A stretch of 64,000 nt of DNA from a virus, in IMG/VR virus record IMGVR_UViG_3300042154_002686, positions 16,562 through 80,561 of that record. The stretch is one strand, 5' to 3'. Positions 26,118-50,833 of the stretch are shown here, in pieces; the stretch's first letter is position 1, and each line of letters starts with the position of its first letter. The notes beneath the pieces are model-generated. The model was given only the letters and a program-made list of their open reading frames with translations. It ran no database searches and had not been told where the DNA came from. Position numbers and translations under genes: made by a program.

Positions 26118-26312
26118 GGACAAGGTGGCTATCGCCACCTTTGTTGAGTGTCTACCGTCATTGTTTCTTTCTCAAACGCTTCCGTTCTTATGAAATAAGT
26201 AAAAATATTATTGATGTATTTGTTTTTAGAGTCTTCGGGTAGGTGCGAAGCACGGTCGATTTCGGAAAATAGTGCTCGCATCGGATACCCCCTGCCGTAG
26301 TGTCATGGAGCA

Positions 26313-26471
26313 ATGCGATACAACATCCGAAAGGGCGAAGGTTACATCCACTACATCATCGACACCCGCACCGACCGCAGGGTCAAGTTGGTCTATGGCT
26401 GGGAGATGGCTCTGAAGGTCTGCCGAGAATACAACCTCTTCTGGGCTGAGTTCAAGAAGACCAACTCGTAA
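26313..26471 (+). CDS. Cassette small protein (52 aa)
   Basis: MRYNIRKGEG...; ATG 76 nt after heptamer; terminator follows. Confidence 0.7.
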   Translation: MRYNIRKGEGYIHYIIDTRTDRRVKLVYGWEMALKVCREYNLFWAEFKKTNS

Positions 26472-26605
26472 GAACTAACGAGCCCCCACGGGGGCTCTTT
26501 TTTTTGACCTGCGAGGTAGGCCGTTGAGGGCATCAAATTGATATTGCACATGACCCCTCTCGCCCTCACTCTCATCTTATCAGCAACCCGCCACCCCTCC
26601 CGCAC

Positions 26606-26740
26606 ATGACCATCCTCGCCCTCGCCCTCGCCCTCGCTTACGCCCTCGCCCTCGGCTGGCTTCTCCGTAAGATGAAGACCACCCCTGCCCTCCGCTCCGA
26701 CCGCTCCGACCGAGTGACCATCTTCGGAGACAACCGCTAA
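26606..26740 (+). CDS. Membrane peptide (44 aa) with (CTCGCC)n Leu-Ala repeat
   Basis: MTILALALALAYALALGWLLRK... Confidence 0.55.
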   Translation: MTILALALALAYALALGWLLRKMKTTPALRSDRSDRVTIFGDNR

Positions 26741-26774
26741 CCCCTCTCACCCACCCACCCACCCACCCACGCAC

Positions 26775-26969
26775 ATGACCCACGCCACCGCCACCGCCAC
26801 CGTTAAGACCGACTGGGACTCCCTCCCCCTCGGTGAAGACCTCTCCCACCTGTGCGGAGGTCGTAACAAGCACAAGACCGCCACCGAGGTGACCGACCTC
26901 GCCCCCTCGGGCGATGGCTGGAACATCCCCACCGCCTCGGCCATCCTCTCCGACCCCACCCTCGGCTAA
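26775..26969 (+). CDS. Cassette small protein, paralog of 31007-31207
   Basis: Shared KTDWD.LPLGE.LSHLCGGRNKH. Confidence 0.75.
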   Translation: MTHATATATVKTDWDSLPLGEDLSHLCGGRNKHKTATEVTDLAPSGDGWNIPTASAILSDPTLG

Positions 26970-27012
26970 CCACCGAGGCAACCCCTCCAACCCCTCCAAC
27001 CCTCCCACGCAC

Positions 27013-27231
27013 ATGACCACCGCCACCGCCCTCCCCGCCCTCCCGCCCGTCCTCCGCATCTCCCGCCCGACTCCTCTGACCACCGTCTGGTCTTATCTGG
27101 CCTCTGTCTCGGACGGAGACCGCATCGTCTTCCCCTGCGGTCTGCGGGTGACGGTCTCCGTCCGCAACCGCATGACCCTCGCCCTCATCATGGCGAAGCG
27201 AGGTCTCCGAGGCACGAAGCGAAACAGGTGA
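27013..27231 (+). CDS. Cassette small protein
   Basis: CCCACGCAC-ATG leader shared with the upstream gene. Confidence 0.65.
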   Translation: MTTATALPALPPVLRISRPTPLTTVWSYLASVSDGDRIVFPCGLRVTVSVRNRMTLALIMAKRGLRGTKRNR

Positions 27232-27260
27232 ACGCCTGTTCACGGTGAACGAAAGTTCAC
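27228..27260. promoter_or_regulatory. Tandem TGAAC-N4-GTTCA operator-like palindromes
   Basis: GTGAACgcctGTTCAC g GTGAACgaaaGTTCAC. Confidence 0.7.
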
Positions 27261-27343
27261 TCTGCGGTAGGTGCGGCGGTGCGTAAATTTCGCCACCGAA
27301 TTGTATCGCACAATGCGACCACATCGCCATGTTCATAGATGCC

Positions 27344-27484
27344 ATGAAGAAGCCCCCCCAGCCCAAGAAGCCCAAGACCGCCAAGACCACCAAGCCCCTC
27401 ACGGGCAAGGAACTCGCCAAGGAGGTGAACAAGTATCAAGGACTCGCCCGAGTCTCTCGGATGCTCGGCAACCTCTGGTCGTAA
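27344..27484 (+). CDS. Cassette basic peptide (46 aa)
   Basis: MKKPPQPKKPK...; ATG 79 nt after heptamer. Confidence 0.7.
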   Translation: MKKPPQPKKPKTAKTTKPLTGKELAKEVNKYQGLARVSRMLGNLWS

Positions 27485-27617
27485 GAACTACGGAGCCCCT
27501 GCGGGGGCTCCCTTTTTCGCAATGCGGTAGGTCGGTTAATTGACCGAAATCAGTCGAATTATTTTCTGGTATCAGACCGTCAAATCGCTACATTCATCTT
27601 CGCACCCAATAAACGCC

Positions 27618-27854
27618 ATGTCTCATAAACTCAATGTCCTCACCCTCGCCCGCACGAACGCCCTCGCCCGCATCCGCAATGTTGGCGACAACATCGCTGA
27701 TGCCAAGGAGAACCTTCGCCTCTCCGTCCTCAACCACGGAACTGGAAGCAAGGCGTGGAACTTCTGGAAGTCCGAACTCGCTCGCCATGACAGCGAGTGG
27801 ACTGAAGTCTGCAACGAACTGCGGGAAATCGACTGGGAACTCGGAAACAAGTAA
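27618..27854 (+). CDS. Cassette small protein
   Basis: MSHKLNVL...; fills unit up to terminator. Confidence 0.7.
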   Translation: MSHKLNVLTLARTNALARIRNVGDNIADAKENLRLSVLNHGTGSKAWNFWKSELARHDSEWTEVCNELREIDWELGNK

Positions 27855-27973
27855 GACGAAACGGGGAGCGAGTGCTCCCCTTTTTTGTGCCCCGAGGGTA
27901 GGCCGACCAGTGCGTAGATTTCGACAAAGATTTTGGTTTACTCGGACGATGGTTCAACTACTGTGATGGTCTC

Positions 27974-28141
27974 ATGCAACCCGCTCCCCTGCCCGACCTC
28001 ACTTACCTCTACATGCTCTCCGTTGAACTTGGAGACATTGCCCAATACTGCGACCGTGGTTCGCCCGAAGACCTCGCTTATCAGAAGGCGAAGCAAGACT
28101 ACCTCGATGCGGTCTTCATGGGCGAAGACGAAGAGGGCTAA
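27974..28141 (+). CDS. Cassette small acidic protein (55 aa)
   Basis: MQPAPLPDL...; ATG 78 nt after heptamer. Confidence 0.7.
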   Translation: MQPAPLPDLTYLYMLSVELGDIAQYCDRGSPEDLAYQKAKQDYLDAVFMGEDEEG

Positions 28142-28286
28142 AGCCCCCGCCCGAAAGGAGTGAGAGACCCCAAGCGGGTCTCTCTTTTTCGCTCTGCGGA
28201 TAGGCCGACCAATTGACCGAAATCAGTCGCACTTTGTTCTGGTATCCTGTCGGGTTTGTGCTACTGTGTCCTTGTTCCCAATACCC

Positions 28287-28487
28287 ATGATTACTAATGA
28301 CCATACCGCCATCTGCTCCCGATACGCCCACCTCGGTGACGCAGTCTGCTTTCGTCTCACCGCCATCGCCCGCACGATGCTCGTCATGCAGGGGCGACTT
28401 GCTCGCCTCGATAAGCGAGCGGGGGCTATGGCCGAACTTGCCCGATGCCGAGCCATGTGGTTCGAACTGACGGGGGAGAGGGTTTAA
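28287..28487 (+). CDS. Cassette small protein
   Basis: MITNDHTAICS...; fills unit. Confidence 0.65.
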   Translation: MITNDHTAICSRYAHLGDAVCFRLTAIARTMLVMQGRLARLDKRAGAMAELARCRAMWFELTGERV

Positions 28488-28612
28488 GACTCTCGCCCAG
28501 TTAGAACAGAAACGGAACCCATCGGGTTCCTTTTTTGTTCCCTGCGGGTAGGTCGCTACAACCGCCATTTTGCTCTCGACTTGGCCGATGCTTCTGCCAC
28601 TCTGTTGGTCTT

Positions 28613-28798
28613 ATGACCTCCTCCTCCTCCCGCTCGCTGGCCCTCGCCCTCGCCTCGCACGAGGCCCACCTGCTCGACCTCGCCCTTCGCAGGGCCGAGT
28701 GCGTAGCCATGGGCCTCAATCCCGAGGACTATGTCCCCGCTGACCCCGTCTTTGACGAGGAGGACTATCGTCCCATCGTGCGGAAACGCTACGGGTGA
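28613..28798 (+). CDS. Cassette small protein
   Basis: MTSSSSRSLAL...; stop overlaps operator. Confidence 0.7.
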   Translation: MTSSSSRSLALALASHEAHLLDLALRRAECVAMGLNPEDYVPADPVFDEEDYRPIVRKRYG

Positions 28799-28828
28799 AC
28801 GCCCGTTCACTGGTGAACATTTGTTCAC
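28795..28828. promoter_or_regulatory. Tandem TGAAC-N4-GTTCA operator-like palindromes
   Basis: GTGAACgcccGTTCAC tg GTGAACatttGTTCAC. Confidence 0.7.
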
Positions 28829-28912
28829 TTCGTGGGTAGGCTGGCTCCTGCGTAAAATTGGGCAACGATTTGTATCGACCCAAGCCAAGGAATGACCACA
28901 TTCATCTGTGCC

Positions 28913-29110
28913 ATGAAGAACGCATCCCTCCTCCCCCGCAACGCTCACCTCGCCATCAAGGAAGCCATCCTCGATGCTAAGGAAGCAAGGAACGAACTCA
29001 ACCGCCTCGGCTCCCGCTACCACGGAATGTCCGAGAAGGTCGAAGAGCCCATCAAGAGCCTCGAAACCCTCATCGCCCGCCTCGAAGCGGTTCTCCCCAA
29101 GGCCGAGTGA
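28913..29110 (+). CDS. Cassette small protein
   Basis: MKNASLLP...; ATG 79 nt after heptamer. Confidence 0.7.
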   Translation: MKNASLLPRNAHLAIKEAILDAKEARNELNRLGSRYHGMSEKVEEPIKSLETLIARLEAVLPKAE

Positions 29111-29242
29111 GGCCGAGGGTAAGAACCAGCGAGACCCCGAGTGGGGTCTCTTTTTTGGTCTGCGGGTAGGTCAGTTTGTGCATAGATTTAGACAAATAAT
29201 TTCATCGACTATGAGCATCGGATAGCCACATTCACCTCTGCC

Positions 29243-29518
29243 ATGACGCACTCCTCCTCCCCCGCCTCGCCCGTGTTCCTCGTCACCGTTCAGTCCGTAG
29301 AATACTACGGTGAACGCTACTACAAGTTCAAGGGCGGGTTCAATGTCCTCGTCTCCACGGACAAGGACGCTACGGCCTTCGGCCTCGTCCTCGAATACCT
29401 TGTGGCGAACAAACTCGCCTCGGGCTACTACCCGAAGCATGCCGAGCGGTTCGAGACCGAGGCAGATGCCCTCGCCACCCTCGACCCCGAATGGGAGACG
29501 GTCAGAGTCCGCCTCTGA
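29243..29518 (+). CDS. Cassette small protein
   Basis: MTHSSSPA...EYYGERYYKFKGG; ATG 79 nt after heptamer. Confidence 0.75.
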   Translation: MTHSSSPASPVFLVTVQSVEYYGERYYKFKGGFNVLVSTDKDATAFGLVLEYLVANKLASGYYPKHAERFETEADALATLDPEWETVRVRL

Positions 29519-29527
29519 GCGGAACAG

Positions 29528-29561
29528 GTGAACGGGTGTTCAGTAATGAACACTTGTTCAC
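29528..29561. promoter_or_regulatory. Tandem TGAAC-N4-GTTCA operator-like palindromes
   Basis: GTGAACgggtGTTCAG taa TGAACacttGTTCAC. Confidence 0.7.
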
Positions 29562-29658
29562 TTCGTGGGTAGGCCGACTGGTGCTTAGATTTCGCCACCG
29601 AATTATCTCGATTTTTTTAAAACGACCCCCATAGTAATGGATGCATCAAGCAACCCAC

Positions 29659-29802
29659 ATGAACGACCTCCATAACAAAATCACCAAACTCGAAAACCGC
29701 CTCGCCAAGCGATGCCACCTCATCGGCCCTCGCTTCCGTGCCGCCCTCGAAAAGCGTCTCGAAGCAATGTATCAGCAGTTCAACGCCCGCCTCGCCAAGT
29801 AA
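29659..29802 (+). CDS. Cassette basic peptide (47 aa)
   Basis: MNDLHNKITKLENRL... Confidence 0.65.
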   Translation: MNDLHNKITKLENRLAKRCHLIGPRFRAALEKRLEAMYQQFNARLAK

Positions 29803-29925
29803 GGCGAAAGGACTAACCGCCCCCTCACGGGGGCTTTTTGTTCTCTTCGAGGGTAGGCCGATTAATTGACCGTTCGCTCATTAAAAACGAGTTGCGTCAG
29901 CACCCCCACCGTTTACCTTCATCTC

Positions 29926-30207
29926 ATGGCAATCACGCCCCACGGAGGTAAAACGAGCGACTCCTCCCGCTCTCCCACGGAAGTCTACCAGATGCTCGTC
30001 AGCATCTCGCAAGCCATCCGAGACGGTCGGAACGGCCTCGACCCCTTCGGCCACAAGTTGGCCGACCTCATGTCCGACCTCTTGGACGAAGTCCGAGACG
30101 AGGTCGAAGCGGCACGGAAGGAGGAACTAATCCTCCGAGCCAAGCGAGCGGCTCAAAACCTCTCCGACGACCTTCGGGCTCACGCTGTCGAAGAACACAG
30201 AGAGTAA
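29926..30207 (+). CDS. Cassette small protein
   Basis: MAITPHGG...; fills unit. Confidence 0.7.
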   Translation: MAITPHGGKTSDSSRSPTEVYQMLVSISQAIRDGRNGLDPFGHKLADLMSDLLDEVRDEVEAARKEELILRAKRAAQNLSDDLRAHAVEEHRE

Positions 30208-30327
30208 GAAGAACGGAGACCCTTCGGGGTCTCCTTTTTTTATTTCGTGGGTAGGCCGCCCCGTGCGTAGATTTCGACAAAGAATTTTGTTTACTTCGGT
30301 CACGAATTGACCACATTCATCTTTGCC

Positions 30328-30552
30328 ATGACGCACTCCCCCGCACTCGATGCCCTCCTCGAAACCAACCCCGCACTCTGGTTCGCTTACCAGAACCACG
30401 CCAACTACAAGGCCAAGGCCAAAGCCCACGAAGAAAAGAAGGAGTGGGCCAAGGCCACTTACTACCACGAACGCTCCATTAGCACTATCGGCTTCATCCA
30501 CTCCATGGGCTACTCTGCCAAGAACATCGGCCAGCCCCGAGCAATCAAGTAA
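30328..30552 (+). CDS. Cassette small protein
   Basis: MTHSPAL...; ATG 79 nt after heptamer. Confidence 0.75.
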   Translation: MTHSPALDALLETNPALWFAYQNHANYKAKAKAHEEKKEWAKATYYHERSISTIGFIHSMGYSAKNIGQPRAIK

Positions 30553-30681
30553 GACGAGACGGGAGAGGCGAAAGCCTCTCTCTTTTTGTCTGCGGGTAGG
30601 TCTGATACTGCATAAAATCAAGCAACGAATTTTCTGGTATTCTACCGTGGATGCCGTAGTGTCATGGTCTCCCACCCAGCC

Positions 30682-30876
30682 ATGAACAAGACCAACCCAG
30701 AAGCCCGCCTCCGCCACATCGAAACCGTCCGTGCCCTGCGTCTCGCCCACGCCCGACACATGGCGAACTTCGACCGATACGCTCGCCTTGAAATGTTTGA
30801 GGCCGCACAGTATTGGCTCGGTCGGGCCAGCGAGGCCCACAAGCAACTCCTCGACCTTGGAGAGATTGCCATCTAA
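30682..30876 (+). CDS. Cassette small protein
   Basis: MNKTNPEARL...; fills unit. Confidence 0.7.
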   Translation: MNKTNPEARLRHIETVRALRLAHARHMANFDRYARLEMFEAAQYWLGRASEAHKQLLDLGEIAI

Positions 30877-31006
30877 TCGATGGTCAGACCCAACGAGAGC
30901 CTTCGGGCTCTCTTTTTTTCTCTACGAGGGTAGGTCTGCTGGTGCGTAAATTTCGCCAGCGATTGTCGTTTACTTTTGGCACGGGATGACCACATTCATC
31001 TTTGCC

Positions 31007-31207
31007 ATGACGCACTCCTCCTCCCCCGCAACGACCGCCACCAAGACCGACTGGGACAACCTCCCCCTCGGTGAAAACCTGTCCCACCTCTGCGGAGGTC
31101 GGAACAAGCACCCCCGCCTCGCCTCCGAGGTCGAGACCCAGACGAAGGACGACACGGTTCGCCCCTTCACTGCGAGCGAACTCCTCGGGGATGTTAGCAT
31201 CGGCTAA
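31007..31207 (+). CDS. Cassette small protein, paralog of 26775-26969
   Basis: Start MTHSSSPA matches 29243; body matches 26775. Confidence 0.75.
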   Translation: MTHSSSPATTATKTDWDNLPLGENLSHLCGGRNKHPRLASEVETQTKDDTVRPFTASELLGDVSIG

Positions 31208-31339
31208 CCCCCGATGTTAGTTCTCAAACAAGAGCCTTCGGGCTCTTTTTTTGTCCCTGCGGATAGGTCTGTCTGTGGGTAAAATTCGACAAAGATTTTT
31301 GTTGTATCGGACGAGGAAAGCCCCCAGACTGTCGGAGTA

Positions 31340-31552
31340 ATGAAACTCCTCGCAACCGACATGACCCACAACGACATTCAAATTGCCAAGAACGCAACGA
31401 TGGATGCCTTCGACACCCTCGAAGCCATCAAGTGCAAGTATCCCGCCCTCGGGGAAGAGTGGGACAGCATCATCGCTGTCCAGCGTTTGCTGGTGAACCA
31501 CACAATTGCTCTCTCCAATCTTGAAAACGCTCGAAACGGTTTGAAGCAGTAA
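31340..31552 (+). CDS. Cassette small protein
   Basis: ATG 79 nt after heptamer. Confidence 0.7.
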   Translation: MKLLATDMTHNDIQIAKNATMDAFDTLEAIKCKYPALGEEWDSIIAVQRLLVNHTIALSNLENARNGLKQ

Positions 31553-31684
31553 GAACAAGCGAGCCCCAAGTGGGGCTCTCTTTTTGTCTGCGAGGGTAGG
31601 TCCGAGACTGCGTAAAAATCGCCAGCGATTGTTATCGATTTTTTTGAAAAACAGTCCATGGTTGTAGTCGCACCAACGCAACCC

Positions 31685-31894
31685 ATGATTAATCCCAATG
31701 CCGAGTTACTCCTCCACCTGTTCGCCAGCCAGAGCCTTCCCCTGCTCCAATGGACTGCTCGCAAGCGACAGAACTCCCTCTACATGCTGACCGTAAGGCA
31801 GGACATTACGGTAGACCAGCATATGAACTACATGGACAATCTTGACGAAGTTGTAGCCTTCGTTCACGAATACGACCCGCCCTCGGTCAAGTGA
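31685..31894 (+). CDS. Cassette small protein
   Basis: MINPNAELL...; fills unit. Confidence 0.65.
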   Translation: MINPNAELLLHLFASQSLPLLQWTARKRQNSLYMLTVRQDITVDQHMNYMDNLDEVVAFVHEYDPPSVK

Positions 31895-32036
31895 GGGAAA
31901 GGTCTAATCGCCCCCTCACGGGGGCTTTTTATTTAGACCCCGAGGTAGGTCTGGCAATTGACCGAACGCTCATAAAATGGTGCTCGCTTTTTATGCGTTG
32001 GTGGTTCACAGTGTTGGAGTAATCAATAACCCTCCC

Positions 32037-32174
32037 ATGCATAACATCATCTCGTTCACCTCCGAAGAGTCCCTCGCCAAGTTCCTCTCGAACTTTGACA
32101 TTACCACGAACCGCTTCACGGTCGAACAGACCTCGAAGAACGGTTTCCTCCTCACCTTCTACCCGAGCATCTAA
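32037..32174 (+). CDS. Cassette peptide (45 aa)
   Basis: MHNIISFTSEE... Confidence 0.65.
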   Translation: MHNIISFTSEESLAKFLSNFDITTNRFTVEQTSKNGFLLTFYPSI

Positions 32175-32600: not shown

Positions 32601-32704
32601 TCCCAAACGAGCCCCTCACGGGGCTTTTTTGTGCCCTCTGCGGGTAGGTCTGGCGAGCCGCCATTTTGTTGTTGCTTTGCGGGCTGGTTGTGTCACTCTC
32701 TTCT

Positions 32705-32840
32705 TATCGCTCCTGCGATATCAGTCTAATCGGTCTTCCCAGCAGTTAGTAGCCACTAACTCTAAGGCGGACACTGCTGGGATACGCCTCCCGATAGACT
32801 AACATAAGACCACCCCTTCGGGGGTGGCAGTTTGTTTTTG
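32705..32840 (+). ncRNA. Structured non-coding RNA occupying a cassette slot
   Basis: Heptamer, promoter and UUCG terminator present but no ATG; stems 32723-33/32791-800 and 32737-46/32773-82; possible pseudoknot 32765-69/32785-89. Confidence 0.7.
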
Positions 32841-32846
32841 TGACTA

Positions 32847-32879
32847 GTGAACATTTGTTCACCATGAACATTTGTTCAC
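32847..32879. promoter_or_regulatory. Tandem TGAAC-N4-GTTCA operator-like palindromes
   Basis: GTGAACatttGTTCAC ca TGAACatttGTTCAC. Confidence 0.7.
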
Positions 32880-32959
32880 CCTGCGGGTAGGCAACTTATA
32901 CGACCGAACGCTCATAAGATAAAACTCGCACAAGCCCCCCGCCATGCTACTCTGATGAC

Positions 32960-34961: not shown

Positions 34962-35088
34962 GTGGGTAACCACCAACGAGAGCCTTCGGGCTCTCTTTTT
35001 TTGCCCACGGGGGTAGGACTCTCAATTGACCGAACGCTCGTAAAATAGACCTTGTATTTCGGTCGAACCATGGTAGAGTGATTGAGTA

Positions 35089-35440: not shown

Positions 35441-35575
35441 ATGAAATCCAAGCCCTCCCTCATTCAGATTATGGCTTCCGTCCGCAAGGTCGGGGGTCGC
35501 CCTTCGGTCGCCCTCGCCTCTAAAAAGTCGAAGGCTCGCAATGACCGAACCTCTTGGAAGCGAGACCAAGAGTAA
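35441..35575 (+). CDS. Basic 44-aa peptide, paralog of 44833-44973
   Basis: IM.SVRKVGGR.S....KK.K.R..R..WK. Confidence 0.75.
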   Translation: MKSKPSLIQIMASVRKVGGRPSVALASKKSKARNDRTSWKRDQE

Positions 35576-35720
35576 TCCCAATCGGGAGGCTACGGCCTCC
35601 CTTTTTTGTGCCCCGTGGGGGTAGGCCGTTGGGTGCGTAAAAATCGGCAGTCTTTTTTCTGGTATTTGGTCGGGGATGTGGTAGTGTCATGGAGTCGAAA
35701 GACACCAAACACCAAAACAT

Positions 35721-39818: not shown

Positions 39819-39935
39819 TCCACGCTGGGGGGATGCTTAACGCATCCCTTTGGTGCGGGGGTAGGCTCGGTAATTGACCGAACTTTCATAAAGATTTTGC
39901 TCGGCAAGCGACCATCTTTCTGCATGATACTAAAC

Positions 39936-40466
39936 ATGGAAATCACTCCAATGGGGTTCACCTCCGACAGCGTCTCCCCCGCTGTCCTCACCGCCAACGC
40001 CACCGCCTTCGTGGAGGCTTGCAAGTCCCGCAAGGGTCAGTTCATCAAGTTGGACTACAAGTCCAACCCCGCCCCCAAGTCGGAGTTCAAGGGCACGACC
40101 CTCGAAAAGGTGACCGCTGGCATCTTCCGCACGGGGGTGGACTTCTCCAACCTCACCGCTGTTAAGGAGGCGATTGAGAATAAGGAGCGTGGCGAGGTTC
40201 AGTCCCTCCCCAAGGGTCAGACTTGGGCGGTGTTCCCCTTCGTCATCAAGACGGACAAGGGCGGGGAGTTGCTCCGCATCACGGTTGCCAAGGGTCAGTA
40301 TCCCTCGGTGGTCTACAAGGTCGATGGGGTCGAAGTCTCGAAGGAAAACTTTGAGTCTTACCTGCCCAAGTCCAAGCAGTCCGACCCGAACCGTGAACCC
40401 CTGCTGGTCTTTACCATCAAGTCCGAAAACCTTATCAGCGTGGCGGGCACGGAACTCACCGAATAA
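39936..40466 (+). CDS. Cassette protein (176 aa)
   Basis: MEITPMGF...; ATG 77 nt after heptamer. Confidence 0.75.
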   Translation: MEITPMGFTSDSVSPAVLTANATAFVEACKSRKGQFIKLDYKSNPAPKSEFKGTTLEKVTAGIFRTGVDFSNLTAVKEAIENKERGEVQSLPKGQTWAVFPFVIKTDKGGELLRITVAKGQYPSVVYKVDGVEVSKENFESYLPKSKQSDPNREPLLVFTIKSENLISVAGTELTE

Positions 40467-41343: not shown

Positions 41344-42177
41344 ATGACCACCACCACCGCCCCCAAGTCCACGGTTGCCGATGTTATCGCTGACCGCTTC
41401 ATCAAGTCCCTCGAAAACGGAGTCGCCCCTTGGCAAAAGCCGTGGGCGAGCGTCCGCCCCCAGAACGGTGTCAGCCGTAAGCCTTACAAGGGCGTAAACG
41501 CCTTCATGCTGGCCTTCTTCGGGGGTGATGACTACTTCCTCACTTACAAGCAAGCCAAAGCCCTTGGCGGGCAGGTGGAAGAGGGTGCAAAGGGTATCCC
41601 CGTGACCTTCTGGAAGCGTATGGAGAAGAAGGACAAAAGCGGGGACTATCTGGTTTGCCGATACTACACGGTTTTCCCCGTGTCCAAGTGCGGACTCCCC
41701 GACTTCAAACGGGCGAACAAGGTCATTACCTTCTCCCCCGTAGAACTTGCCGAGGTCGTTCTTGCGAAGAACACGACCCCCGTCAGCCACGGCGGAGCCT
41801 CGGCTTACTACACGCCCTCCAAGCATGCAATCCAGATGCCCAATAAGGAGTCCTTCAAGTCGGTTGCTAACTATTACGCAACCCTCTTCCATGAGATTGG
41901 GCACTCCCTCGGGGAGCACTCCTCGGACTCCTTCGGGGGTGAGGTCTACGCAAAGGAGGAACTTGTGGCCGAACTTTTCGCCTCGATTGCCCTCCAACAT
42001 TGCGGACTCCTCGAAAGCGTAAACTTCGACAATTCGACCGCTTACCTCGGGTCTTGGCTGAAAGCCCTTAATGATGATAAGACTCTCATCCAGAAAGCCA
42101 GCACGGAAGCCTTCAAGCGGTGGGAGAAACTGATGGGCAAGGTCGAAGAGGAGGTCGAGGAGGAGGTCGAGGCATAA
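41344..42177 (+). CDS. ardC: ArdC-family ssDNA-binding antirestriction protein (DUF1738 + zincin)
   Basis: PWQKPW, YKGVN, FLTYKQA..LGGQV, AYYTP..H.IQMP, YYATLFHEIGH, YAKEELVAE, YLGSWL. Confidence 0.88.
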   Translation: MTTTTAPKSTVADVIADRFIKSLENGVAPWQKPWASVRPQNGVSRKPYKGVNAFMLAFFGGDDYFLTYKQAKALGGQVEEGAKGIPVTFWKRMEKKDKSGDYLVCRYYTVFPVSKCGLPDFKRANKVITFSPVELAEVVLAKNTTPVSHGGASAYYTPSKHAIQMPNKESFKSVANYYATLFHEIGHSLGEHSSDSFGGEVYAKEELVAELFASIALQHCGLLESVNFDNSTAYLGSWLKALNDDKTLIQKASTEAFKRWEKLMGKVEEEVEEEVEA

Positions 42178-43210: not shown

Positions 43211-43258
43211 TCCAAAATAACACTTGCAATTTATCCAAACCCATACATACTACTAAAC

Positions 43259-43743: not shown

Positions 43744-44064
43744 ATGAACAACAACACCACCCCCCTGTCCGCTTTCTTGGCGGAACACACCACCCACCTC
43801 CCCTCGGAAGTCCTTGTCCTCTGGATGGACAACCTTAACGAGACCGTCCCGACCCGCAAGTTGCTCGACCAAGCGGAAGACGCTTACATTGGCGAGTTCC
43901 GAGACTTCACCCGCCTTGCCGAGCATCTGGTAGACGAGTCGGGCATGCTCTCTAACATCCCCTCCGAAATCGCCAACTATTTCGATTATGAGAAGTATGG
44001 CAACGACCTCCGACTTGGCGGGGATGTCTGGGAGTCGGATGGGCACTTCTTCCGCAACATCTAA
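43744..44064 (+). CDS. ardA: ArdA-like antirestriction (DNA mimic) protein, short form
   Basis: YIGEF...AEHLVDE.G.L..IP.EI.NYFDYEKYG.DL. Confidence 0.8.
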   Translation: MNNNTTPLSAFLAEHTTHLPSEVLVLWMDNLNETVPTRKLLDQAEDAYIGEFRDFTRLAEHLVDESGMLSNIPSEIANYFDYEKYGNDLRLGGDVWESDGHFFRNI

Positions 44065-44077
44065 TCCAACACCAACC

Positions 44078-44618: not shown

Positions 44619-44792
44619 ATGAACCACCCCATCCGATATAACATCAATGACTACATCTACGCAGAAGCGGAAGTTATCCGTGCCCACCGCTACGGAAACC
44701 TTGCCGAGCAAATCAAGGCAACGGAACACAAGCAGAAAGTCCTCAAAGCCATGGAAGAACAGCGAAAGGAAGACGAAGAAAACCGAAAATAA
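44619..44792 (+). CDS. Cassette peptide (57 aa)
   Basis: MNHPIRYN...; ATG 77 nt after heptamer; TGAAC-N4-GTTCA over the -35 (44585-44598). Confidence 0.65.
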   Translation: MNHPIRYNINDYIYAEAEVIRAHRYGNLAEQIKATEHKQKVLKAMEEQRKEDEENRK

Positions 44793-44832
44793 ATCTCGAC
44801 AAAAGAGAAAAACCATGCACAATGACTCTCGT

Positions 44833-44973
44833 ATGAAAACCAAATCCATCAAGTTCATCGACATTATGACCAGCGTCCGCAAGGTCGGGGGTCGGGCTTC
44901 CTCTGTCTTCATCGGCAAGAAAGCCAAGGTTCGTGCCAACCGCCACGCTTGGAAGAAGGAGGAACTCGTCTAA
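44833..44973 (+). CDS. Basic 46-aa peptide, paralog of 35441
   Basis: IMTSVRKVGGRASSVFIGKKAKVRANRHAWKKEE. Confidence 0.75.
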   Translation: MKTKSIKFIDIMTSVRKVGGRASSVFIGKKAKVRANRHAWKKEELV

Positions 44974-45227
44974 TGCGAACCAACTCAAAAGTCACGAAGG
45001 AGGAACTCCGCATGGCCTCCGAGGAGACTCGCTACATCCTCAAAAAGCCTCCGCTTGAATACGCCAACACCGATGCTGGGTTTGGTGCGGCTACGAGGGA
45101 CTTTGAATTCCTCATGGACTACGCCCTTGGGACTGACGAGGGAGAGGTCATCAACAACGCCTTGGATTGGAAACGCTGGGAACTCCAAGCGTATTACAAG
45201 AAACTCCACGGATGGGACATTGTTTAA
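44973..45227 (+). CDS. Hypothetical protein
   Basis: TAATG coupling; MRTNSK. Confidence 0.6.
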   Translation: MRTNSKVTKEELRMASEETRYILKKPPLEYANTDAGFGAATRDFEFLMDYALGTDEGEVINNALDWKRWELQAYYKKLHGWDIV

Positions 45228-45229
45228 TT

Positions 45230-45424
45230 ATGAGCAATCAGACATTCCGAGTTAAGAACATCGAGACGGGAGAAATCCATGTCTGGGATGCCAAGCGGGT
45301 TCTTGCGGAAATCAACCGAGACCGCTATGACGAGTGGATGAACTATGACGAGGATGACGACATTCGTGGGGCTTGGAACATCTGGGTCGAGGATGGAGAA
45401 CCTTGGCGGATGTTGGACGAGTAA
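45230..45424 (+). CDS. Hypothetical acidic protein
   Basis: W....VL.EINRDR..EW..YDE.D. Confidence 0.7.
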   Translation: MSNQTFRVKNIETGEIHVWDAKRVLAEINRDRYDEWMNYDEDDDIRGAWNIWVEDGEPWRMLDE

Positions 45425-45541
45425 GTAGTCGAGCCCCTTCGGGGGCTCTTCTTTTGTCTTGCCGTGGTAGGCTTTTAATGACGGCAGATTGTCGTAAAAT
45501 TGTGTTGTATTAACGCCAGAAGTGTGAACAATGTCTCTCGT

Positions 45542-45763
45542 ATGAACAACCTCATCCATCCCTCCCTCCGTTCCCTTCACGCCCTCCGAGATGTTGAAGG
45601 GGATGCCATTGACCCTCACTTCTCTTGGAGTCCCTGCGAGTGCTGTGGAGACCGCCTTGGCGGTAATCGCTACGACTGTGAAGCCCTTGCCGTTGAGAAC
45701 GGGGTTCTGGTTCAACTCGACAACTGCTCGGCTTGCCCCGACTGCATTGTGAAGTTTCAGTAA
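45542..45763 (+). CDS. Small Zn-finger-like protein
   Basis: FSWSPCECCG..LGGNR...CPDC; ATG 77 nt after heptamer. Confidence 0.7.
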   Translation: MNNLIHPSLRSLHALRDVEGDAIDPHFSWSPCECCGDRLGGNRYDCEALAVENGVLVQLDNCSACPDCIVKFQ

Positions 45764-45819
45764 AATAAACTTGCATTAATAAAAAAACCTGCCATACTGC
45801 ATCTCACATCACCAATACT

Positions 45820-46125
45820 ATGAACCTCGGCATCGAATACAAAATCAAATACTTCACCAACTACGAAACAAAGGAGGAGAAGGAGATTGTTATCACCATG
45901 GACAAGGTAGACAACCTCTACATTGGCAAGGGCAATTCCTGCCGTTGCGGATGCGGGGGCGACTATTTTGAAATTGATGAAAACGAGCGAGCCATCGAGA
46001 AATCCCTGCGACAAATGTCCAGCGGTGAATACGAGGTTCGCTCCATTGAGGACTACATCTTCGAAATCACCACCAGCGTAAATGGTGACTACGAGCGTGT
46101 GAAAACGCTCTACCTCAAAAAATAA
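45820..46125 (+). CDS. Hypothetical protein
   Basis: Y.GK...CRCGCGGDY; own promoter. Confidence 0.7.
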   Translation: MNLGIEYKIKYFTNYETKEEKEIVITMDKVDNLYIGKGNSCRCGCGGDYFEIDENERAIEKSLRQMSSGEYEVRSIEDYIFEITTSVNGDYERVKTLYLKK

Positions 46126-47929: not shown

Positions 47930-48019
47930 TCAAGAGGGGCACAGTTAGTGCCCCTTTTTTGTTCCCACCCCATATCAGCAAACAACGGGGGTAGGCTTTT
48001 ATCGGGATAGTAAATACTG

Positions 48020-48249
48020 AAAGACCCCCCACCCCGTAAAGCGGATGTGGAGGGTCAGTTGTATGAGTAACACCGTCATCAGCAACTACCAATTAATCGG
48101 AGACTTTTCATAACCCTTTACATACTACTCTGGTTAGACCAATCGAGTATGTTCGGCTCACCGCTGGTAGTCGGTGGCAGTCCTTACGGATACTGCAAGG
48201 GGGCGGGCCTCACGGCTTGTCGCATCTCCAAAGTGTTAGAATGAACTAT
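48020..48249 (-). ncRNA. Putative structured ncRNA 2
   Basis: TTGACA (48278-83) and CATCAT (48256-61) promoter; GNRA hairpins (GUGA, GUAA) inside a GGAGA/UCUCC stem; terminator-like hairpin 48019-56. Confidence 0.55.
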
Positions 48250-48460: not shown

Positions 48461-48555
48461 AAGACACATGATGCATAACTTGGGTTGGATTGCAACACAA
48501 TTCTTTCTGAAAGATTGTGCTTGAAAAAACAAGAAAGCCATGCATCATGTGTGGT

Positions 48556-48747
48556 ATGACGCTCACCCAATACCAAAAAGGAATGAACCGCCTCGCAGAA
48601 ATCCGCAACAGCCTTACCACGGCTCGGCAGGAACTCGCATCGGAGAAGAACTACGACCTGCGTGAAATGCATCAAGCGGTCATCAACGCCCTCATGGCGG
48701 AGATGCAGGAGACCGAAACCCTTATGAACGGGACTAAAAATAAGTGA
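48556..48747 (+). CDS. Hypothetical coiled-coil peptide
   Basis: Leaderless after TTGAAA...CATCAT. Confidence 0.65.
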   Translation: MTLTQYQKGMNRLAEIRNSLTTARQELASEKNYDLREMHQAVINALMAEMQETETLMNGTKNK

Positions 48748-48810
48748 ACTATTTTCTTTACTCTTAACAAATTTCTGCTATACTGTTTTCTCATCACCAA
48801 TAATACACAT

Positions 48811-49068
48811 ATGAAATCCAAGCCCACCAAGACTGAAATCGACAACGCCCTCCGCCAAATGTCCATGCTTGCCGCCCGACACGGCATCGAGTATGTCATC
48901 ATCGAGGACGAATACATCGATACTTACTGCGAAGACAATGAACTCACCCTCACGGACGAAGCCCGTGAGAATGTCAAGGCGGCTATTAGCGACTACCTCC
49001 AACAGATGATGGAGTCTGACGACTGCCTCTCCGAGTGCGTTGACGACTTCGCCACCAGCAAGGAATAA
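48811..49068 (+). CDS. Hypothetical acidic protein
   Basis: Own promoter. Confidence 0.65.
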   Translation: MKSKPTKTEIDNALRQMSMLAARHGIEYVIIEDEYIDTYCEDNELTLTDEARENVKAAISDYLQQMMESDDCLSECVDDFATSKE

Positions 49069-49087
49069 TCTAAACCCAAATACAAAA

Positions 49088-49303
49088 ATGAGCAACATGT
49101 CTTACTGTCGGTTCCAGAACACCAAGACCGACCTCCGAGATTGCGTCCGCAACTTCTGGTCTGTCTCCTCGGAAGAGGAGGCGGAAGCCCGAAAGCGTCT
49201 GGTTAAGTATGCCAAGGACATTCTGGAACTCTACGACCAGAACCCCGAGGATGTTGACAACTGCGTCTTTGACGAGGACGCAGAAGACGAGGACGAAGGT
49301 TAG
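49088..49303 (+). CDS. MSNMSYCRF-type protein, paralog of 40967
   Basis: MSNMSYCRFQNT..DL.DCV. Confidence 0.8.
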   Translation: MSNMSYCRFQNTKTDLRDCVRNFWSVSSEEEAEARKRLVKYAKDILELYDQNPEDVDNCVFDEDAEDEDEG

Positions 49304-49427
49304 TCCTCACGCCCCCGAAAGGGGGCTTTCTTCTTGTCCCCGTGGTAGGTATTTGAAGACCTTAAATAGTTGAAGATTAATCTTGAATAATTCAAAATTT
49401 CTGACATGCTGTTTGTCTATCACCAAC

Positions 49428-49727
49428 ATGAACAACGAAGACAACACCCTCAAAACCGCATCCATCTACAAGACCATCGACACGATGACGACCCGCAAGG
49501 CTTCGTCCTTGGAGGAGGTCGTGGCTATCGCAGTAGACCCCGAACTGAAAGGCATCCTGTTCGGTCGTCTCCCTGTGCTTGAAGTCAACGACCCGTCCTT
49601 CTCGCCTCTGGACGACATTGAAGGCGGTGTTCCCGCCAAGCGTTTCATGCTCAACTACCGAAGGAAGACTTACTATGTCAATACCGAGGGCTACACTTAT
49701 TGTCGCTACCTCTGCGAAATCGTTTGA
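49428..49727 (+). CDS. Hypothetical protein
   Basis: YYVNTEGYTYCRY. Confidence 0.7.
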   Translation: MNNEDNTLKTASIYKTIDTMTTRKASSLEEVVAIAVDPELKGILFGRLPVLEVNDPSFSPLDDIEGGVPAKRFMLNYRRKTYYVNTEGYTYCRYLCEIV

Positions 49728-49775
49728 CATTTAAACCAAACTCTGCATACTGTATCTTCTATCACCCATAATACC

Positions 49776-50075
49776 ATGCATAAAGACCAACTACCAGAAC
49801 TGCACAAGAAGCGTTATCACGCCCAACAGGAGGCCGTAGATAAAGCCCGTAAAATCCTCGACAAGGCGGGGGTCAAGTGGATTTTCGCCACGGACGAGGA
49901 TGTTCTCACCGCCCTCGAAGGCGATGAGCGACTTCCCCTTGTCTGGAAGGAGGGGGGCTTTGACCTCATCGAAGACATTAACGATGCTTGCATCGACAAC
50001 CTTATGAACAGTTGGGGCGACTGCCTCTCTTACGCAATTGACAATACCATCGGCACGGAGGACGAGGGCGAATAA
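49776..50075 (+). CDS. Hypothetical acidic protein
   Basis: Own TTGACA...CATACT promoter. Confidence 0.65.
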   Translation: MHKDQLPELHKKRYHAQQEAVDKARKILDKAGVKWIFATDEDVLTALEGDERLPLVWKEGGFDLIEDINDACIDNLMNSWGDCLSYAIDNTIGTEDEGE

Positions 50076-50076
50076 C

Positions 50077-50463
50077 ATGGGACTCGACCAATACGCATAC
50101 TCCATTAGCAAGGGAGACATGGACTTGCTCCAAACGCAGGAATTCCTTGACGGTGAACTCGGCATCGAGTCGCAAGAGGAACTCATGTATTGGCGTAAGC
50201 ATGCCGACCTCAATGGCTACATGGAGAAGATGTATCACCAGCAGGGGCACATGGATGACTTCAATGGGCAACCGCTTGAATTGGACAAGGACGACCTCTT
50301 GGAACTCAAAGCAATCATCGAGGGGGACGGCCTTGAAACGGCAAGCGGTTTCTTCTGGGGATACTCTACGCCAGAAGACGATATCCCAACCTTGGAGTTC
50401 ATCGATAAGGCTTTACAGGCCATCAAGGACGGGAAGGTAGTCTATTACTGTTGCTCTTGGTAG
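50077..50463 (+). CDS. Phage hypothetical protein (MGLDQY...YWRK...GFFWG type)
   Basis: MGLDQY, YWRKH, GFFWG, VYYCCSW motifs. Confidence 0.75.
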   Translation: MGLDQYAYSISKGDMDLLQTQEFLDGELGIESQEELMYWRKHADLNGYMEKMYHQQGHMDDFNGQPLELDKDDLLELKAIIEGDGLETASGFFWGYSTPEDDIPTLEFIDKALQAIKDGKVVYYCCSW

Positions 50464-50833
50464 AGTGACTCACAGCCCCCTTTACGGGGGCTTTTTGCGT
50501 ATGCCACAAGGACGACAGGGGGATTATTAAGGGGGGCGGCACGGGGGATGGTCAAGGGGAAACAAAACCCCCACTCCATAATAAGATAAACTTATAGACA
50601 GGATTAGAGTTTATGATATTAGTGAAATTTATAACCCCCCATACATTTACTAATGACGGGGGTAGGTTCCTGTAGCAATCGACATATTGTTTTGGATGTG
50701 TCTGCTAAACAAGCACTTGCGGATGACTTTAATCTTTCTTTCATCTATTTCAGATTTGGTGCTTGCTATTCTAATTAAAGCATGCATGATGAATGTCGTT
50801 CCAACAAACACCAAACCAAAAAACACAAAACAC

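What the first reader, a model, noticed from the sequence alone, without database searches (positions are those of the whole stretch)
26237..50666. A 24-kb array of about 52 heptamer-punctuated mini-gene cassettes
Seen: a repeating unit of [terminator hairpin + T-tract] - [..CG-N0-3-GGGTAGG-Y] - [second box] - [sigma70-like -35/-10] - [ORF of mostly 40-180 aa or an RNA], always on the + strand. From 27265 to 38453, 34 copies are spaced 235-421 nt apart (mean about 339), each holding a single gene or RNA. Spacing then widens to 0.6-1.35 kb, and the heptamer disappears after 50.7 kb apart from a degenerate copy near 56529. Known parallels are the promoter-early stem-loop (PeSL) cassettes of T4-type phages and integron arrays, but I do not recognise this motif. 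Inference: a modular early-gene library in which each unit is independently expressed and swappable. The heptamer could be an activator or DNA-binding site, a recombination site, or a strand-specific nick or processing site. Its reverse complement CCTAC(C/T)C resembles the CCTA^CTCCGG nick motif I recall for phiKMV-like phages; that needs checking.
Basis: partly seen in the sequence, partly recalled or inferred. Interest (0 to 1): 0.93.

Follow-up and report, generated by a model that had tools for sequence, protein, structure and literature searches.

The report
Phage array of standardised gene cassettes
An uncultured freshwater phage devotes 24 kb to 52 near-identical "terminator, GGGTAGG, promoter" modules that each express one small, mostly unknown gene; the cargo genes are reshuffled between relatives, and the four-letter core TAGG is almost banned from the rest of the genome.

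Summary
There are 52 co-oriented sites at 26237-50660: 40 exact GGGTAGG and 12 NNNTAGG. 44 follow a terminator-like hairpin, and each precedes an A/T-rich block and an extended -10 promoter at a fixed register, so the heptamer lies at about -75..-69. The units are monocistronic, mostly leaderless cassettes.

The closest known kind is the promoter-early stem-loop (PeSL) hyperplastic region of T4-type phages, here in an unrelated lineage and at extreme density. A relative (86% TerL identity) is collinear in both arms. Its array holds half of the cargo ORFs in scrambled order behind different modules, with TTGCTAGG in place of GGGTAGG. Smaller relatives have a 3.3-kb plain operon at this locus.

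New finding: TAGG is a reserved word. The window holds 63 copies on both strands against 346 expected. 52 are the module sites, and the array has no other copy on either strand. The genome also lacks six palindromic 4-mers.

What reads the heptamer is unresolved. I favour a phage-encoded DNA-binding factor; clade-specific double-HTH proteins are weak candidates. A strand-specific nick site is the main rival. No integrase, resolvase or Y1 transposase was found.

The parts
26237..50666 (+). Array of 52 terminator-heptamer-promoter modules and about 66 small ORFs. Heptamer starts: 26237, 26514, 27265, 27525, 27896, 28198, 28546, 28834, 29164, 29567, 29851, 30249, 30594, 30928, 31261, 31594, 31943, 32227, 32642, 32885, 33258, 33573, 33994, 34298, 34684, 35011, 35364, 35619, 36000, 36337, 36708, 37031, 37432, 37667, 38080, 38453, 39104, 39455, 39859, 40547, 40866, 41255, 42243, 42911, 43664, 44542, 45465, 46509, 47127, 47989, 49343, 50660.
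35573..35720 (+). Representative class A module (#28). Stop codon 35573-35575. Terminator stem-loop 35584-35601 with T-tract to 35607. Heptamer 35619-35625. Box A / UP-like block (TGCGTAAAAATCGGCAGTCTTTTTT) 35634-35658. -35-like CTGGTA 35659-35664. TG 35679-35680 and -10 TAGTGT 35682-35687. A/C-rich leader without a Shine-Dalgarno sequence. ATG at 35721.
35011..35088 (+). Representative class B module (#26). Heptamer 35011-35017. Box B (CAATTGACCGAACGCTCGTAAAAT) 35023-35046. -35-like CTTGTA 35051-35056. TG plus -10 TAGAGT 35074-35079. ATG at 35089, so the mRNA is nearly leaderless.
41344..42177 (+). Cargo: ArdC-like anti-restriction protein (ArdcN plus zincin MPTase-PolyVal domains).
43744..44064 (+). 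Cargo: ArdA-family anti-restriction protein.
39924..40466 (+). Cargo: 180-aa protein. By eye it resembles the first gene of the short early operon of the array-less 43-kb relative G009. It has a homologue in G001 (68% identity).
32642..32885 (+). Cassette #19 without an ORF. The cargo is a structured RNA (32700-32850: -56.4 kcal/mol, z -4.33).
50723..51706 (+). DUF932 gene, the first conserved gene after the last heptamer and the right boundary of the array.
56527..56535 (+). Degenerate module copy TTGTTAGGC followed by TTTTAAT, upstream of a + strand ORF.
62619..63372 (-). Tandem paralogous double-HTH proteins (HTH1 62619-63023, HTH2 63016-63372). Each has a sigma70-region-4-like HTH and an HTH_17 domain. 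They occur only in the array-bearing clade. Weak candidates for the heptamer reader.
59219..60977 (-). RecT-family annealase (60126-60977) and PDDEXK exonuclease DUF3799 (59219-60172). A plausible engine of recombination between modules. Present family-wide.

Best explanation
The region is a hyperplastic early-gene region built from a standard expression module. From left to right the module holds the stop codon, a GC-rich tetraloop terminator with T-tract, CG(R)-GGGTAGG-Y, an A/T-rich upstream block (two main variants), a weak -35, an extended -10 (TGnTAnnGT), and an ATG 5-35 nt after the -10. Host sigma-70-type RNA polymerase would transcribe each cassette as its own leaderless or short-leader mRNA (inferred). 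The cargo is mostly ORFans, plus ArdA, an ArdC-like protein and one structured RNA, so the array probably serves host takeover and anti-defence. Because the module is repeated 52 times, it offers portable homology. Cassettes are gained, lost and reordered, probably with the phage's RecT/exonuclease pair, as in T4-type PeSL regions. Turnover is shown; the mechanism is inferred. The heptamer lies in the untranscribed spacer, centred near -72. I read it as the target of a sequence-specific, most likely phage-encoded, DNA-acting protein whose core word is TAGG and whose flank preference differs between lineages (GGG-TAGG versus TTGC-TAGG). Binding would coordinate or insulate all 52 promoters. Its effect must be harmful inside genes, because TAGG is purged everywhere else. 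The clade-specific double-HTH proteins are the only candidates seen, and they are weak ones.
For: Architecture and register. Turnover: both arms are collinear with G001 at 72-84% nucleotide identity, while homology inside the array is ORF-sized and scrambled. 32 of 66 ORFs have G001 homologues and cassettes 1-20 are almost all unique. The regions upstream of orthologous ORFs are no more alike (0.59) than random module pairs (0.57-0.59). 61 of 66 ORFs are singletons, so modules, not genes, were multiplied. Array-less relatives have a 3.3-kb plain operon between primase and DUF932. Contigs from other lake samples carry cassette-sized deletions with junctions in the modules. Cargo. Heptamer under selection: TAGG is invariant in 52 of 52 modules and only the first three bases vary. 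It is the most conserved block of the module. Protein site rather than strand-specific chemistry: G001 uses both orientations and has three CCTA-N10-12-TAGG palindromic pairs. Phage-specific reader: the flank differs between co-occurring relatives. The TAGG purge and the double-HTH genes are confined to the array-bearing clade, with RecT as a positive control for that search. Reserved word: 63 TAGG against 346 +/- 17 expected; 52 are module sites and the array has no other copy on either strand.
Against: There are no transcript data, so start sites, timing and terminator function are inferred. A classical transcription factor that reads about 11 bp should not force a purge of a 4-mer; that signature fits a nuclease better. 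The HTH candidates rest on phyletic co-occurrence within one clade and on faster divergence (60-64% against 75-92% for neighbours), with no binding evidence. Only two array-bearing genomes were found, so co-variation has n = 2. The cleanest population deletion (X2, 30307->30987) shares 32 identical bases across the joint and could be a k=31 assembly artefact. The X3 joints come from low-depth contigs. Promoters without a heptamer exist in the distal array (for example near 42.6 kb), so the heptamer is not needed for promoter activity as such.
Confidence: 0.5

Rival explanations
1. The heptamer is a strand-specific nick (or short-specificity nuclease) site, like the localised single-strand interruptions of T5, phiKMV-like phages and phage tf. 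A phage nickase would cut each spacer, for example to relax early promoters, to mark cassette borders, or to start recombination. The genome avoids the word elsewhere to escape its own enzyme.
For: All 52 sites lie on one strand and the reverse complement CCTACCC is absent. The purge at 4-mer level resembles the avoidance of nuclease sites, alongside six purged palindromic 4-mers. Known nick sites lie on one strand only, differ between relatives, and in phiKMV-like phages read CGACxxxxxCCTA/CTCCGG on the non-coding strand, which shares CCTAC (PMC3517423). Two strain-level deletion joints lie at or next to the heptamer.
Against: G001 has the core in both orientations, including three CCTA-N10-12-TAGG pairs, which would make staggered double-strand breaks. 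No nickase was identified. The one HNH-like small protein (62243-62533) is my reading of its motifs, had no Pfam match, and is also present in the array-less G002. The CGAC-N5 part of the phiKMV consensus is absent. Known nicked phages have 4-14 sites, not 52. The fixed register to the promoter suggests a link to transcription.
Confidence: 0.2
2. TAGG/CCTA is the target of a host defence with an asymmetric site (Type III, IIS or BREX-like). The phage has purged it, like the palindromes. The module copies are tolerated, or act as decoys, because they are all in one orientation, as with EcoP15I sites in T7 (from memory).
For: The strand ratio is extreme: 61 + strand against 2 - strand copies in the window. 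Both strands are depleted about 30-fold outside the modules. The family shows massive and variable restriction-site avoidance. The array carries ArdA and an ArdC-like gene.
Against: This does not explain why 52 copies are kept at a fixed place in every module, nor why the flank changes to TTGC in G001. G001 carries both orientations. Array-less relatives do not purge TAGG (G002: 121 observed against about 136 expected from base composition for the + strand; it is not among the ten lowest words in G006, G007 and G009).
Confidence: 0.1
3. The heptamer is the upstream element of a second promoter that depends on a phage factor, like the MotA box of T4 middle promoters or the PmSL variant. In class A modules GGGTAGG is followed after 12 nt by TAnnnT.
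For: 14 of 18 class A modules have TAnnnT at +19..+24. This spacing is close to the 11-13 nt between the MotA box and the -10 (from memory). PmSLs are described in phage nt-1 (PMC4122927).
Against: Class B and other modules (34 of 52) have no -10-like hexamer at that place. The A/T blocks fit UP-element positions of the downstream promoter equally well. No MotA or AsiA homologues were seen, although no dedicated search was run.
Confidence: 0.08
4. The heptamer is the core of a site-specific recombination site for cassette capture (integron-like or REP/RAYT-like).
For: The array consists of cassettes with scrambled cargo. GGTAGGY is one base away from the integron core GTTRRRY (from memory). 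Two variants, GGTTAGGT at 34684 and the degenerate TTGTTAGGC at 56527, contain a sequence that fits it exactly. REPs carry a conserved GTAG next to a hairpin (from memory). Deletion joints lie at the heptamer.
Against: G000 and G001 have no tyrosine integrase, serine recombinase or Y1 transposase, and the control genomes gave hits in each search. G000 has no inverse core at all. Every cassette has its own promoter. G000 and G001 share cargo but not the heptamer, and homology ends at ORF borders, not at the heptamer.
Confidence: 0.05
5. The heptamer has no function of its own. It is kept by gene conversion among modules, or serves only as a GC clamp after the T-tract that helps termination.
For: It lies 5-10 nt after the T-tract. 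Modules are clearly homogenised within each genome.
Against: TAGG is invariant while neighbouring positions drift. Module #1 has a heptamer but no terminator. The genome-wide purge of the word shows that it is read by something.
Confidence: 0.04

Closest known systems
PeSL (promoter-early stem-loop) cassettes in hyperplastic regions of T4-type phages (Arbiol et al. 2010, PMC2839356; Comeau et al. 2014, PMC4122927)
   Same: Both are composite stem-loop terminators followed by an A/T-rich block and a sigma-70-type early promoter between small ORFan genes. In both, the module sequence is specific to a phage pair, the modules cluster in a plastic region, and they mark indels, replacements and displacements between relatives.
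   Different: The lineage is unrelated; the nearest cultured phage is Verrucomicrobia phage P8625, at 22-27% identity to TerL and the major capsid protein. There are 52 modules in unbroken tandem, about 30% of the genome, rather than scattered groups. The mRNAs have no Shine-Dalgarno sequence and are leaderless. An extra invariant heptamer sits between stem-loop and promoter, and its core word is purged from the rest of the genome. Mini-circles were not tested.
PmSL / MotA-box middle promoters of T4-type phages
   Same: A stem-loop is followed by a short phage-specific box about 12 nt upstream of a TAnnnT (class A modules only).
   Different: Two thirds of the modules do not fit this pattern. 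No MotA or AsiA homologue was seen. A complete extended -10 promoter lies downstream.
Stoperators of cluster A mycobacteriophages (from memory: 13-bp asymmetric repressor sites in intergenic spaces, oriented with transcription)
   Same: Both are many copies of an asymmetric site in short intergenic spaces, co-oriented with transcription, with a lineage-specific sequence that implies a co-evolving phage protein.
   Different: Here the sites occur only in one region and always in a terminator-promoter module. No repressor or integrase was found, so the phage is probably lytic. The core is only 4-7 bp. G001 uses both orientations.
Localised single-strand nick sites of T5, phiKMV-like phages and tf (PMC3517423)
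   Same: Both are short consensus sites on one strand only that differ between relatives. They share CCTAC with the phiKMV consensus. The function of the known sites is also unknown.
   Different: There are 52 sites against 4-14. These sites sit at a fixed place in expression modules. Nicks have not been shown here. The other half of the phiKMV consensus is absent.
Integron cassette arrays
   Same: Both are tandem arrays of single-gene cassettes with variable cargo and a short conserved core.
   Different: There is no IntI and no attC hairpin with an inverse core. Every cassette has its own promoter and terminator.

Membership tests
PeSL-type hyperplastic region | Stem-loop (terminator) directly upstream of an early sigma-70-type promoter in one compact intergenic module | tested here: met
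   44 of 52 modules have a hairpin with a T-rich tail. The extended -10 starts at a modal +63 from the heptamer, with a -35-like hexamer at +40..45.
PeSL-type hyperplastic region | A/T-rich block upstream of the -35 | tested here: met
   A/T blocks at about -57..-50 and -45..-37.
PeSL-type hyperplastic region | Modules flank small, mostly ORFan genes clustered in a variable region between conserved blocks | tested here: met
   66 ORFs; Pfam and PHROGs name only ArdA and ArdC-like. The arms are collinear with G001 and the array is scrambled.
PeSL-type hyperplastic region | Indels and replacements between close relatives have their borders in the modules | tested here: met
   Homology blocks are ORF-sized and upstream modules are unrelated between orthologues. 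Cassette-sized deletions occur in X2 and X3 contigs (X2 may be an assembly artefact).
PeSL-type hyperplastic region | Excised mini-circles formed by recombination between flanking modules | not testable with these tools
   Needs inverse PCR or long reads from infected cells.
PeSL-type hyperplastic region | Shine-Dalgarno sequence as part of the module; T4-type myovirus lineage | tested here: not met
   The leaders have no Shine-Dalgarno sequence or are absent. TerL and the major capsid protein are only 22-27% identical to any cultured phage, and the best hits are not T4-like phages. This is therefore an analogue, not a member by descent.
Integron | IntI tyrosine recombinase next to the array | tested here: not met
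   PF00589 is absent from G000 and G001, and all 14 control genomes gave hits.
Integron | attC with inverse core and core forming a hairpin; promoterless cassettes | tested here: not met
   The reverse complement of the heptamer occurs 0 times. Each cassette has its own promoter.
Localised nick sites (T5, phiKMV, tf type) | Consensus present on one strand only | tested here: met
   42 against 0 in G000. G001, however, has both orientations.
Localised nick sites (T5, phiKMV, tf type) | Physical single-strand interruption in virion DNA | not testable with these tools
   Only assembled contigs were available; there were no raw reads.
Localised nick sites (T5, phiKMV, tf type) | Match to the full phiKMV consensus CGACxxxxxCCTACTCCGG | tested here: not met
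   Only CCTAC is shared. No GTCG lies 5 nt after GTAGG on the + strand.
Stoperator-type repressor sites | Asymmetric sites in intergenic spaces, co-oriented with transcription | tested here: met
   52 of 52 sites.
Stoperator-type repressor sites | Bound by the phage immunity repressor of a temperate phage; sites in both genome arms | tested here: not met
   No integrase was found. The sites occur only in the array. Binding cannot be tested here.
REP/RAYT | Y1 HUH transposase and GTAG 5' of an imperfect palindrome | tested here: not met
   PF01797 is absent from G000 and G001, and 6 control genomes gave hits. A downstream palindrome is seen in only some class A modules.

The most novel reading that the evidence does not exclude
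The phage runs a 'plug-in' expression platform. A fixed module supplies stop codon, terminator, address word, promoter and start, and unrelated ORF bodies are swapped in and out between them. The address word TAGG is reserved genome-wide for one phage factor, possibly the clade-specific double-HTH proteins or an unrecognised nickase. That factor switches, insulates or nicks all 52 cassettes at once and co-evolves with the flank of the word (GGG-TAGG versus TTGC-TAGG). This would be a new kind of global early-gene control, and it may also drive cassette exchange.
Probability: 0.3. Interest if true: 0.85.

Novelty: new variant of a known kind. Interest (0 to 1): 0.68.

Why it matters
Early regions are where phages keep rapidly changing anti-defence and takeover genes. 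How these genes are acquired and kept expressible is poorly understood outside T4-type phages. This array shows the PeSL principle in an unrelated, uncultured lineage and in an almost engineered form, with 52 interchangeable single-gene units and cargo and control sequences evolving separately.

It therefore offers three things:
- a compact catalogue of about 60 candidate early effectors, two of them recognisable anti-restriction proteins;
- a natural set of graded promoter-terminator parts;
- a sharp, testable puzzle, namely a 4-letter word that appears 52 times at one defined place and is otherwise purged like a restriction site.

Finding what reads that word could reveal a new regulator or nickase class. 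It could also link gene control to cassette exchange.

Tried and rejected
**Searches for more arrays**
- The IMG/VR scan for GGGTAGG-N8-TGCGTARAW gave 24 single chance hits and no array.
- The scan for GGGTAGG-N4-TTAATTGACCGAAC gave nothing.
That pattern was a poor choice.
- The scan for AAAATAGTTCTYGNNNTTT found only generic strong promoters of unrelated phages.
- Loci next to ArdC, DUF932 and primase in more distant relatives hold no arrays.

**Expression and reads**
- No RNA holder was listed for the stretch, so nothing is known about expression.
- Only contigs could be laid, so nicks and read ends could not be seen.

**Readings considered and dropped**
- Chi-like site: its fixed place in the module and its change between co-occurring relatives argue against it.
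- RfaH/ops-like element: it shares GGTAG, but the site lies upstream of the promoter, and module #1 has no transcription entering it.
- ECF-type promoter: the spacing is wrong.
- Primase site, pac site or iterons: these do not fit the pattern.
- Bacteroidetes -33/-7 promoter: the downstream TGnTAnnGT promoter fits better.

**Tests that did not settle anything**
- Dyad symmetry of the second boxes was weak for class A (4.3 against 3.4 in shuffles) and absent for class B, so I make no operator claim.
- The PF00940 (T7-type RNA polymerase) search had no valid positive control, so its absence is not shown.
- The Atlas and PDB sequence searches of HTH1 gave only generic HTH leads.
- Sense-strand counts from greedy ORF calls are unreliable, because spurious antisense ORFs cover the array. 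I used the site list instead.

Full report
**Setting.** The window is bases 16562-80561 of an 80,561-bp IMG/VR viral contig (G000). A related contig (G003) runs from G000 position 229 straight on to position 80472, so G000 is a closed map of about 80.5 kb and CheckV's 83% is an underestimate. The left arm (window 1-26 kb, minus strand) encodes the major capsid protein, portal, TerL, a TerS-like HTH protein and a primase. The right arm holds DUF932, 11 tRNAs, a RecT plus PDDEXK exonuclease pair and a lysozyme. The nearest cultured phage is Verrucomicrobia phage P8625, at only 22-27% identity. The host is unknown. DNA holders of the stretch are lake-water metagenomes from several studies.

**Observation.** GGGTAGG occurs 42 times, all on the + strand, against 5.6 expected. 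40 copies lie in 26237-50666. With 12 one-mismatch variants that all keep TAGG there are 52 sites. No variant that alters TAGG sits at a module position. Further on, spacing is 319-1354 nt.

**Module anatomy.** Aligned on the heptamer, the whole intergenic unit keeps its register.
- G-TAA stop at -45..-42.
- A GC-rich hairpin, usually with a tetraloop, and a T-tract ending about 8 nt before the heptamer.
- CG at -3/-2, then the heptamer followed by Y.
- A variable 7-8 nt, then a second box.
- A weak -35 at +40..45, TG at +60/61 and a TAnnGT hexamer at +63..68.
- ATG mostly at +64..+80.

44 of 52 sites have a terminator-like hairpin upstream, against 17% of random array positions. Terminator-like sites are three-fold enriched. 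The strict E. coli promoter scan finds little. The conserved TGnTAnnGT is, however, a canonical extended -10, and the same AAAATAGTT-CTTG upstream form occurs in strong promoters of many unrelated phages. With the hexamer at -12..-7, the heptamer spans about -75..-69, and the A/T blocks lie where UP-element subsites lie. The leaders are absent or short, A/C-rich, and lack a Shine-Dalgarno sequence.

The second box has two main forms. Class A, in 18 modules, is TGCGTAAAATTTCGSCA..GATTTT. Class B, in about 20 modules, is TTAATTGAC(C/G)G..TCRTAAA. A small distal class (47127, 47989, 50660) is preceded by CCCCCC..CAAACAAC.

**Cargo.** I called 66 + strand ORFs. 61 are singletons in an all-against-all blastp, so the array did not grow by duplicating genes. 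Pfam and PHROGs recognise only ArdA (43744-44064) and an ArdC-like protein (41344-42177), plus a few unnamed phage families. One cassette carries a structured RNA. This supports, but does not prove, an early anti-defence or takeover role.

**Comparative evidence.** G001 (56 kb, TerL 86%, primase 92%) is collinear with G000 in both arms at 72-84% nucleotide identity. Inside the array, homology comes in ORF-sized blocks in scrambled order. 32 of 66 ORFs have a G001 homologue, and cassettes 1-20 are almost all unique to G000. Homology stops within a few bases of the ORFs. The 115 nt upstream of orthologous ORFs are no more alike (0.59) than random module pairs (0.57-0.59), and they often belong to different module classes. 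Cargo and control sequences therefore evolve separately.

G001 has no GGGTAGG at all. At the same place after its terminators it has (G)TTTGCTAGG-Y, and in other modules the inverted form CCTAGCAAAC / CCTACGGAAC. It also has three CCTA-N10-12-TAGG palindromic pairs.

More distant relatives have only about 3.3 kb between primase and DUF932. These include G009 (43 kb, rated complete) and G006. In G009 that stretch is one divergent promoter region and a plain three-gene operon. The first gene of that operon appears, by eye, to be homologous to cassette 39 of G000. The array is thus a lineage-specific 24-kb expansion of a short early operon.

Contigs from other lake samples add cassette-sized deletions.
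- In X2, 30307 joins 30987. This removes exactly cassettes 12 and 13 (679 nt) across 32 shared bases, which could be a k=31 assembly artefact.
- In X3, 28829 joins 30263 and 31269 joins 31609, with the junctions at or just after the heptamer. These contigs have low depth.

**Comparison with PeSLs.** All of this matches the PeSL concept in T4-type phages. PeSLs are composite stem-loop plus early-promoter modules. They are specific to a phage pair, cluster in hyperplastic regions, and mark indels and replacements, with crossovers at various points in the module (PMC2839356, PMC4122927). A family-wide RecT/exonuclease pair is a plausible engine. I file the array as an analogue, not a member by descent.

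**The heptamer.** It is the best-conserved block of the module, and its TAGG core never varies.

The new and, I think, most telling result is that TAGG is a reserved word. The window has 63 copies on both strands against 346 +/- 17 in dinucleotide-preserving shuffles. 52 are the module sites, and the 24-kb array has no other copy on either strand. In the whole genome only 11 non-module copies lie on the + strand and 2 on the - strand. Only one copy lies in the sense orientation inside a gene.

The same genome has no ACGT, AGCT, CGCG or GATC, one CCGG and one GCGC, and is nearly free of GCWGC and CCWGG. The set of purged palindromes varies among relatives. The TAGG/CCTA purge is seen in G000, G003 and G001, but not in the array-less G002, G006, G007 and G009.

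**What reads the word.** A purge at 4-mer level argues for something with short specificity and a harmful effect inside genes. That favours a nuclease or a strong polar block over a mild activator. On the other hand, G001's inverted and palindromic copies argue for a DNA-binding protein with a TAGG half-site rather than a nickase. The change of flank between two phages that co-occur in the same samples argues for a phage-encoded reader rather than a host one.

The only candidates seen are two tandem paralogous double-HTH proteins at 62619-63372, each with a sigma-70 region-4-like HTH and an HTH_17 domain.
- G001 has one copy at 60-64% identity, while its neighbours are 75-92% identical.
- Array-less relatives lack it, while the RecT control is found in them.
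- The late-type motif GTTGACA-N5-6-CAA occurs in array-less relatives too. These proteins are therefore not needed for that motif.

This evidence is weak and purely phyletic.

**Exclusions.** G000 and G001 have no tyrosine integrase, serine recombinase or Y1 transposase, and the control genomes gave hits in each search. They have no sigma-70 region 2. The T7-type RNA polymerase search had no valid control. It shares only CCTAC with the reverse complement of the heptamer.

**Verdict.** The array is real, highly non-random, and best described as an extreme, independently evolved PeSL-like cassette platform. The function of its reserved heptamer is open. My estimates are:
- a phage-encoded DNA-binding factor that coordinates or insulates the 52 promoters: about 0.45-0.5;
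- a nick or nuclease site: about 0.2;
- a host-defence word kept in one orientation: about 0.1;
- a MotA-box-like second promoter: about 0.08;
- a site-specific recombination core: about 0.05;
- no function of its own: about 0.04.

Noticed in passing
whole window and G000, G001, G003; loci L030, L037, L038, L040: Extreme avoidance of palindromic 4-mers. G000 has 0 ACGT, AGCT, CGCG and GATC, 1 CCGG, 1 GCGC and 20 CTAG (272-313 expected each), and almost no GCWGC, CCWGG or CGWCG. The purged set differs between relatives: G001 adds GTAC, and the G007 part lacks ten palindromes. This points to hosts rich in restriction systems.
   Followed up: partly
window 32642-32885: Cassette #19 has a full module frame but no ORF. 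Bases 32700-32850 fold at -56.4 kcal/mol (z -4.33, 0 of 200 shuffles as good). There is no Rfam match in the window apart from tRNAs.
   Followed up: partly
window about 27227-27262, 28794-28830, 29527-29563, 32843-32881; G001 near 24.5, 25.5 and 38.7 kb: Tandem GTGAAC-N4-GTTCAC palindromes (Cheo/LexA-box-like, GAAC-N4-GTTC) take the place of the terminator in four modules. A few cassettes may therefore be under a separate repressor.
   Followed up: no
minus strand of window 1-26 kb (for example before the genes ending at 10364, 9354, 6727, 15704) and relatives L013, L020-23, L037, L040: The motif GTTGACA-N5-6-CAA occurs 9 times on the minus strand of G000 and never on the plus strand, 10-35 nt before structural gene starts. 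It also occurs in array-less relatives. It is probably a family-wide late promoter type.
   Followed up: partly
window 34298, 35619, 36000, 37667, 40547 modules: Five cassettes share the leader GGAGTCGAAAGACACC right after the -10. 9 of 66 ORFs begin with MNN. The stop is G-TAA at a fixed -45..-42. The module seems to supply the first codons and the stop of its cargo.
   Followed up: no
G000 ends (window 63877-64000) and G001 56194-56317; G003 35773-35960: G000 and G001 contigs end at the same 124-bp stretch (99% identical). G003 bridges G000's two ends, so the genome map is closed at about 80.5 kb.
   Followed up: yes
window 47989-48100 and G001 about 40762-40850: The distal modules are followed by a conserved non-coding hairpin (GACCCCCCAC..GTGGAGGGTC) instead of a promoter and ORF. 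It is conserved between G000 and G001.
   Followed up: no
window 26000-46000, runs X1 and X2: A G001-like phage is present in the same lake samples at much higher contig depth (about 190-670 against 5-23). The two array types therefore co-occur and could exchange cargo.
   Followed up: partly
window 56946-58380, minus strand: A cluster of 11 tRNA genes: Gln, Ala, Gly, Ser, Tyr, Leu, Trp, Pro, Ile(tat), Arg, Thr.
   Followed up: no
window 26000-34000 versus the arms: The array has higher G+C (0.53-0.57 proximal, falling to 0.47-0.50 distal) than the structural arm (0.42-0.50). The most G+C-rich, proximal 20 cassettes are the ones without G001 homologues.
   Followed up: no
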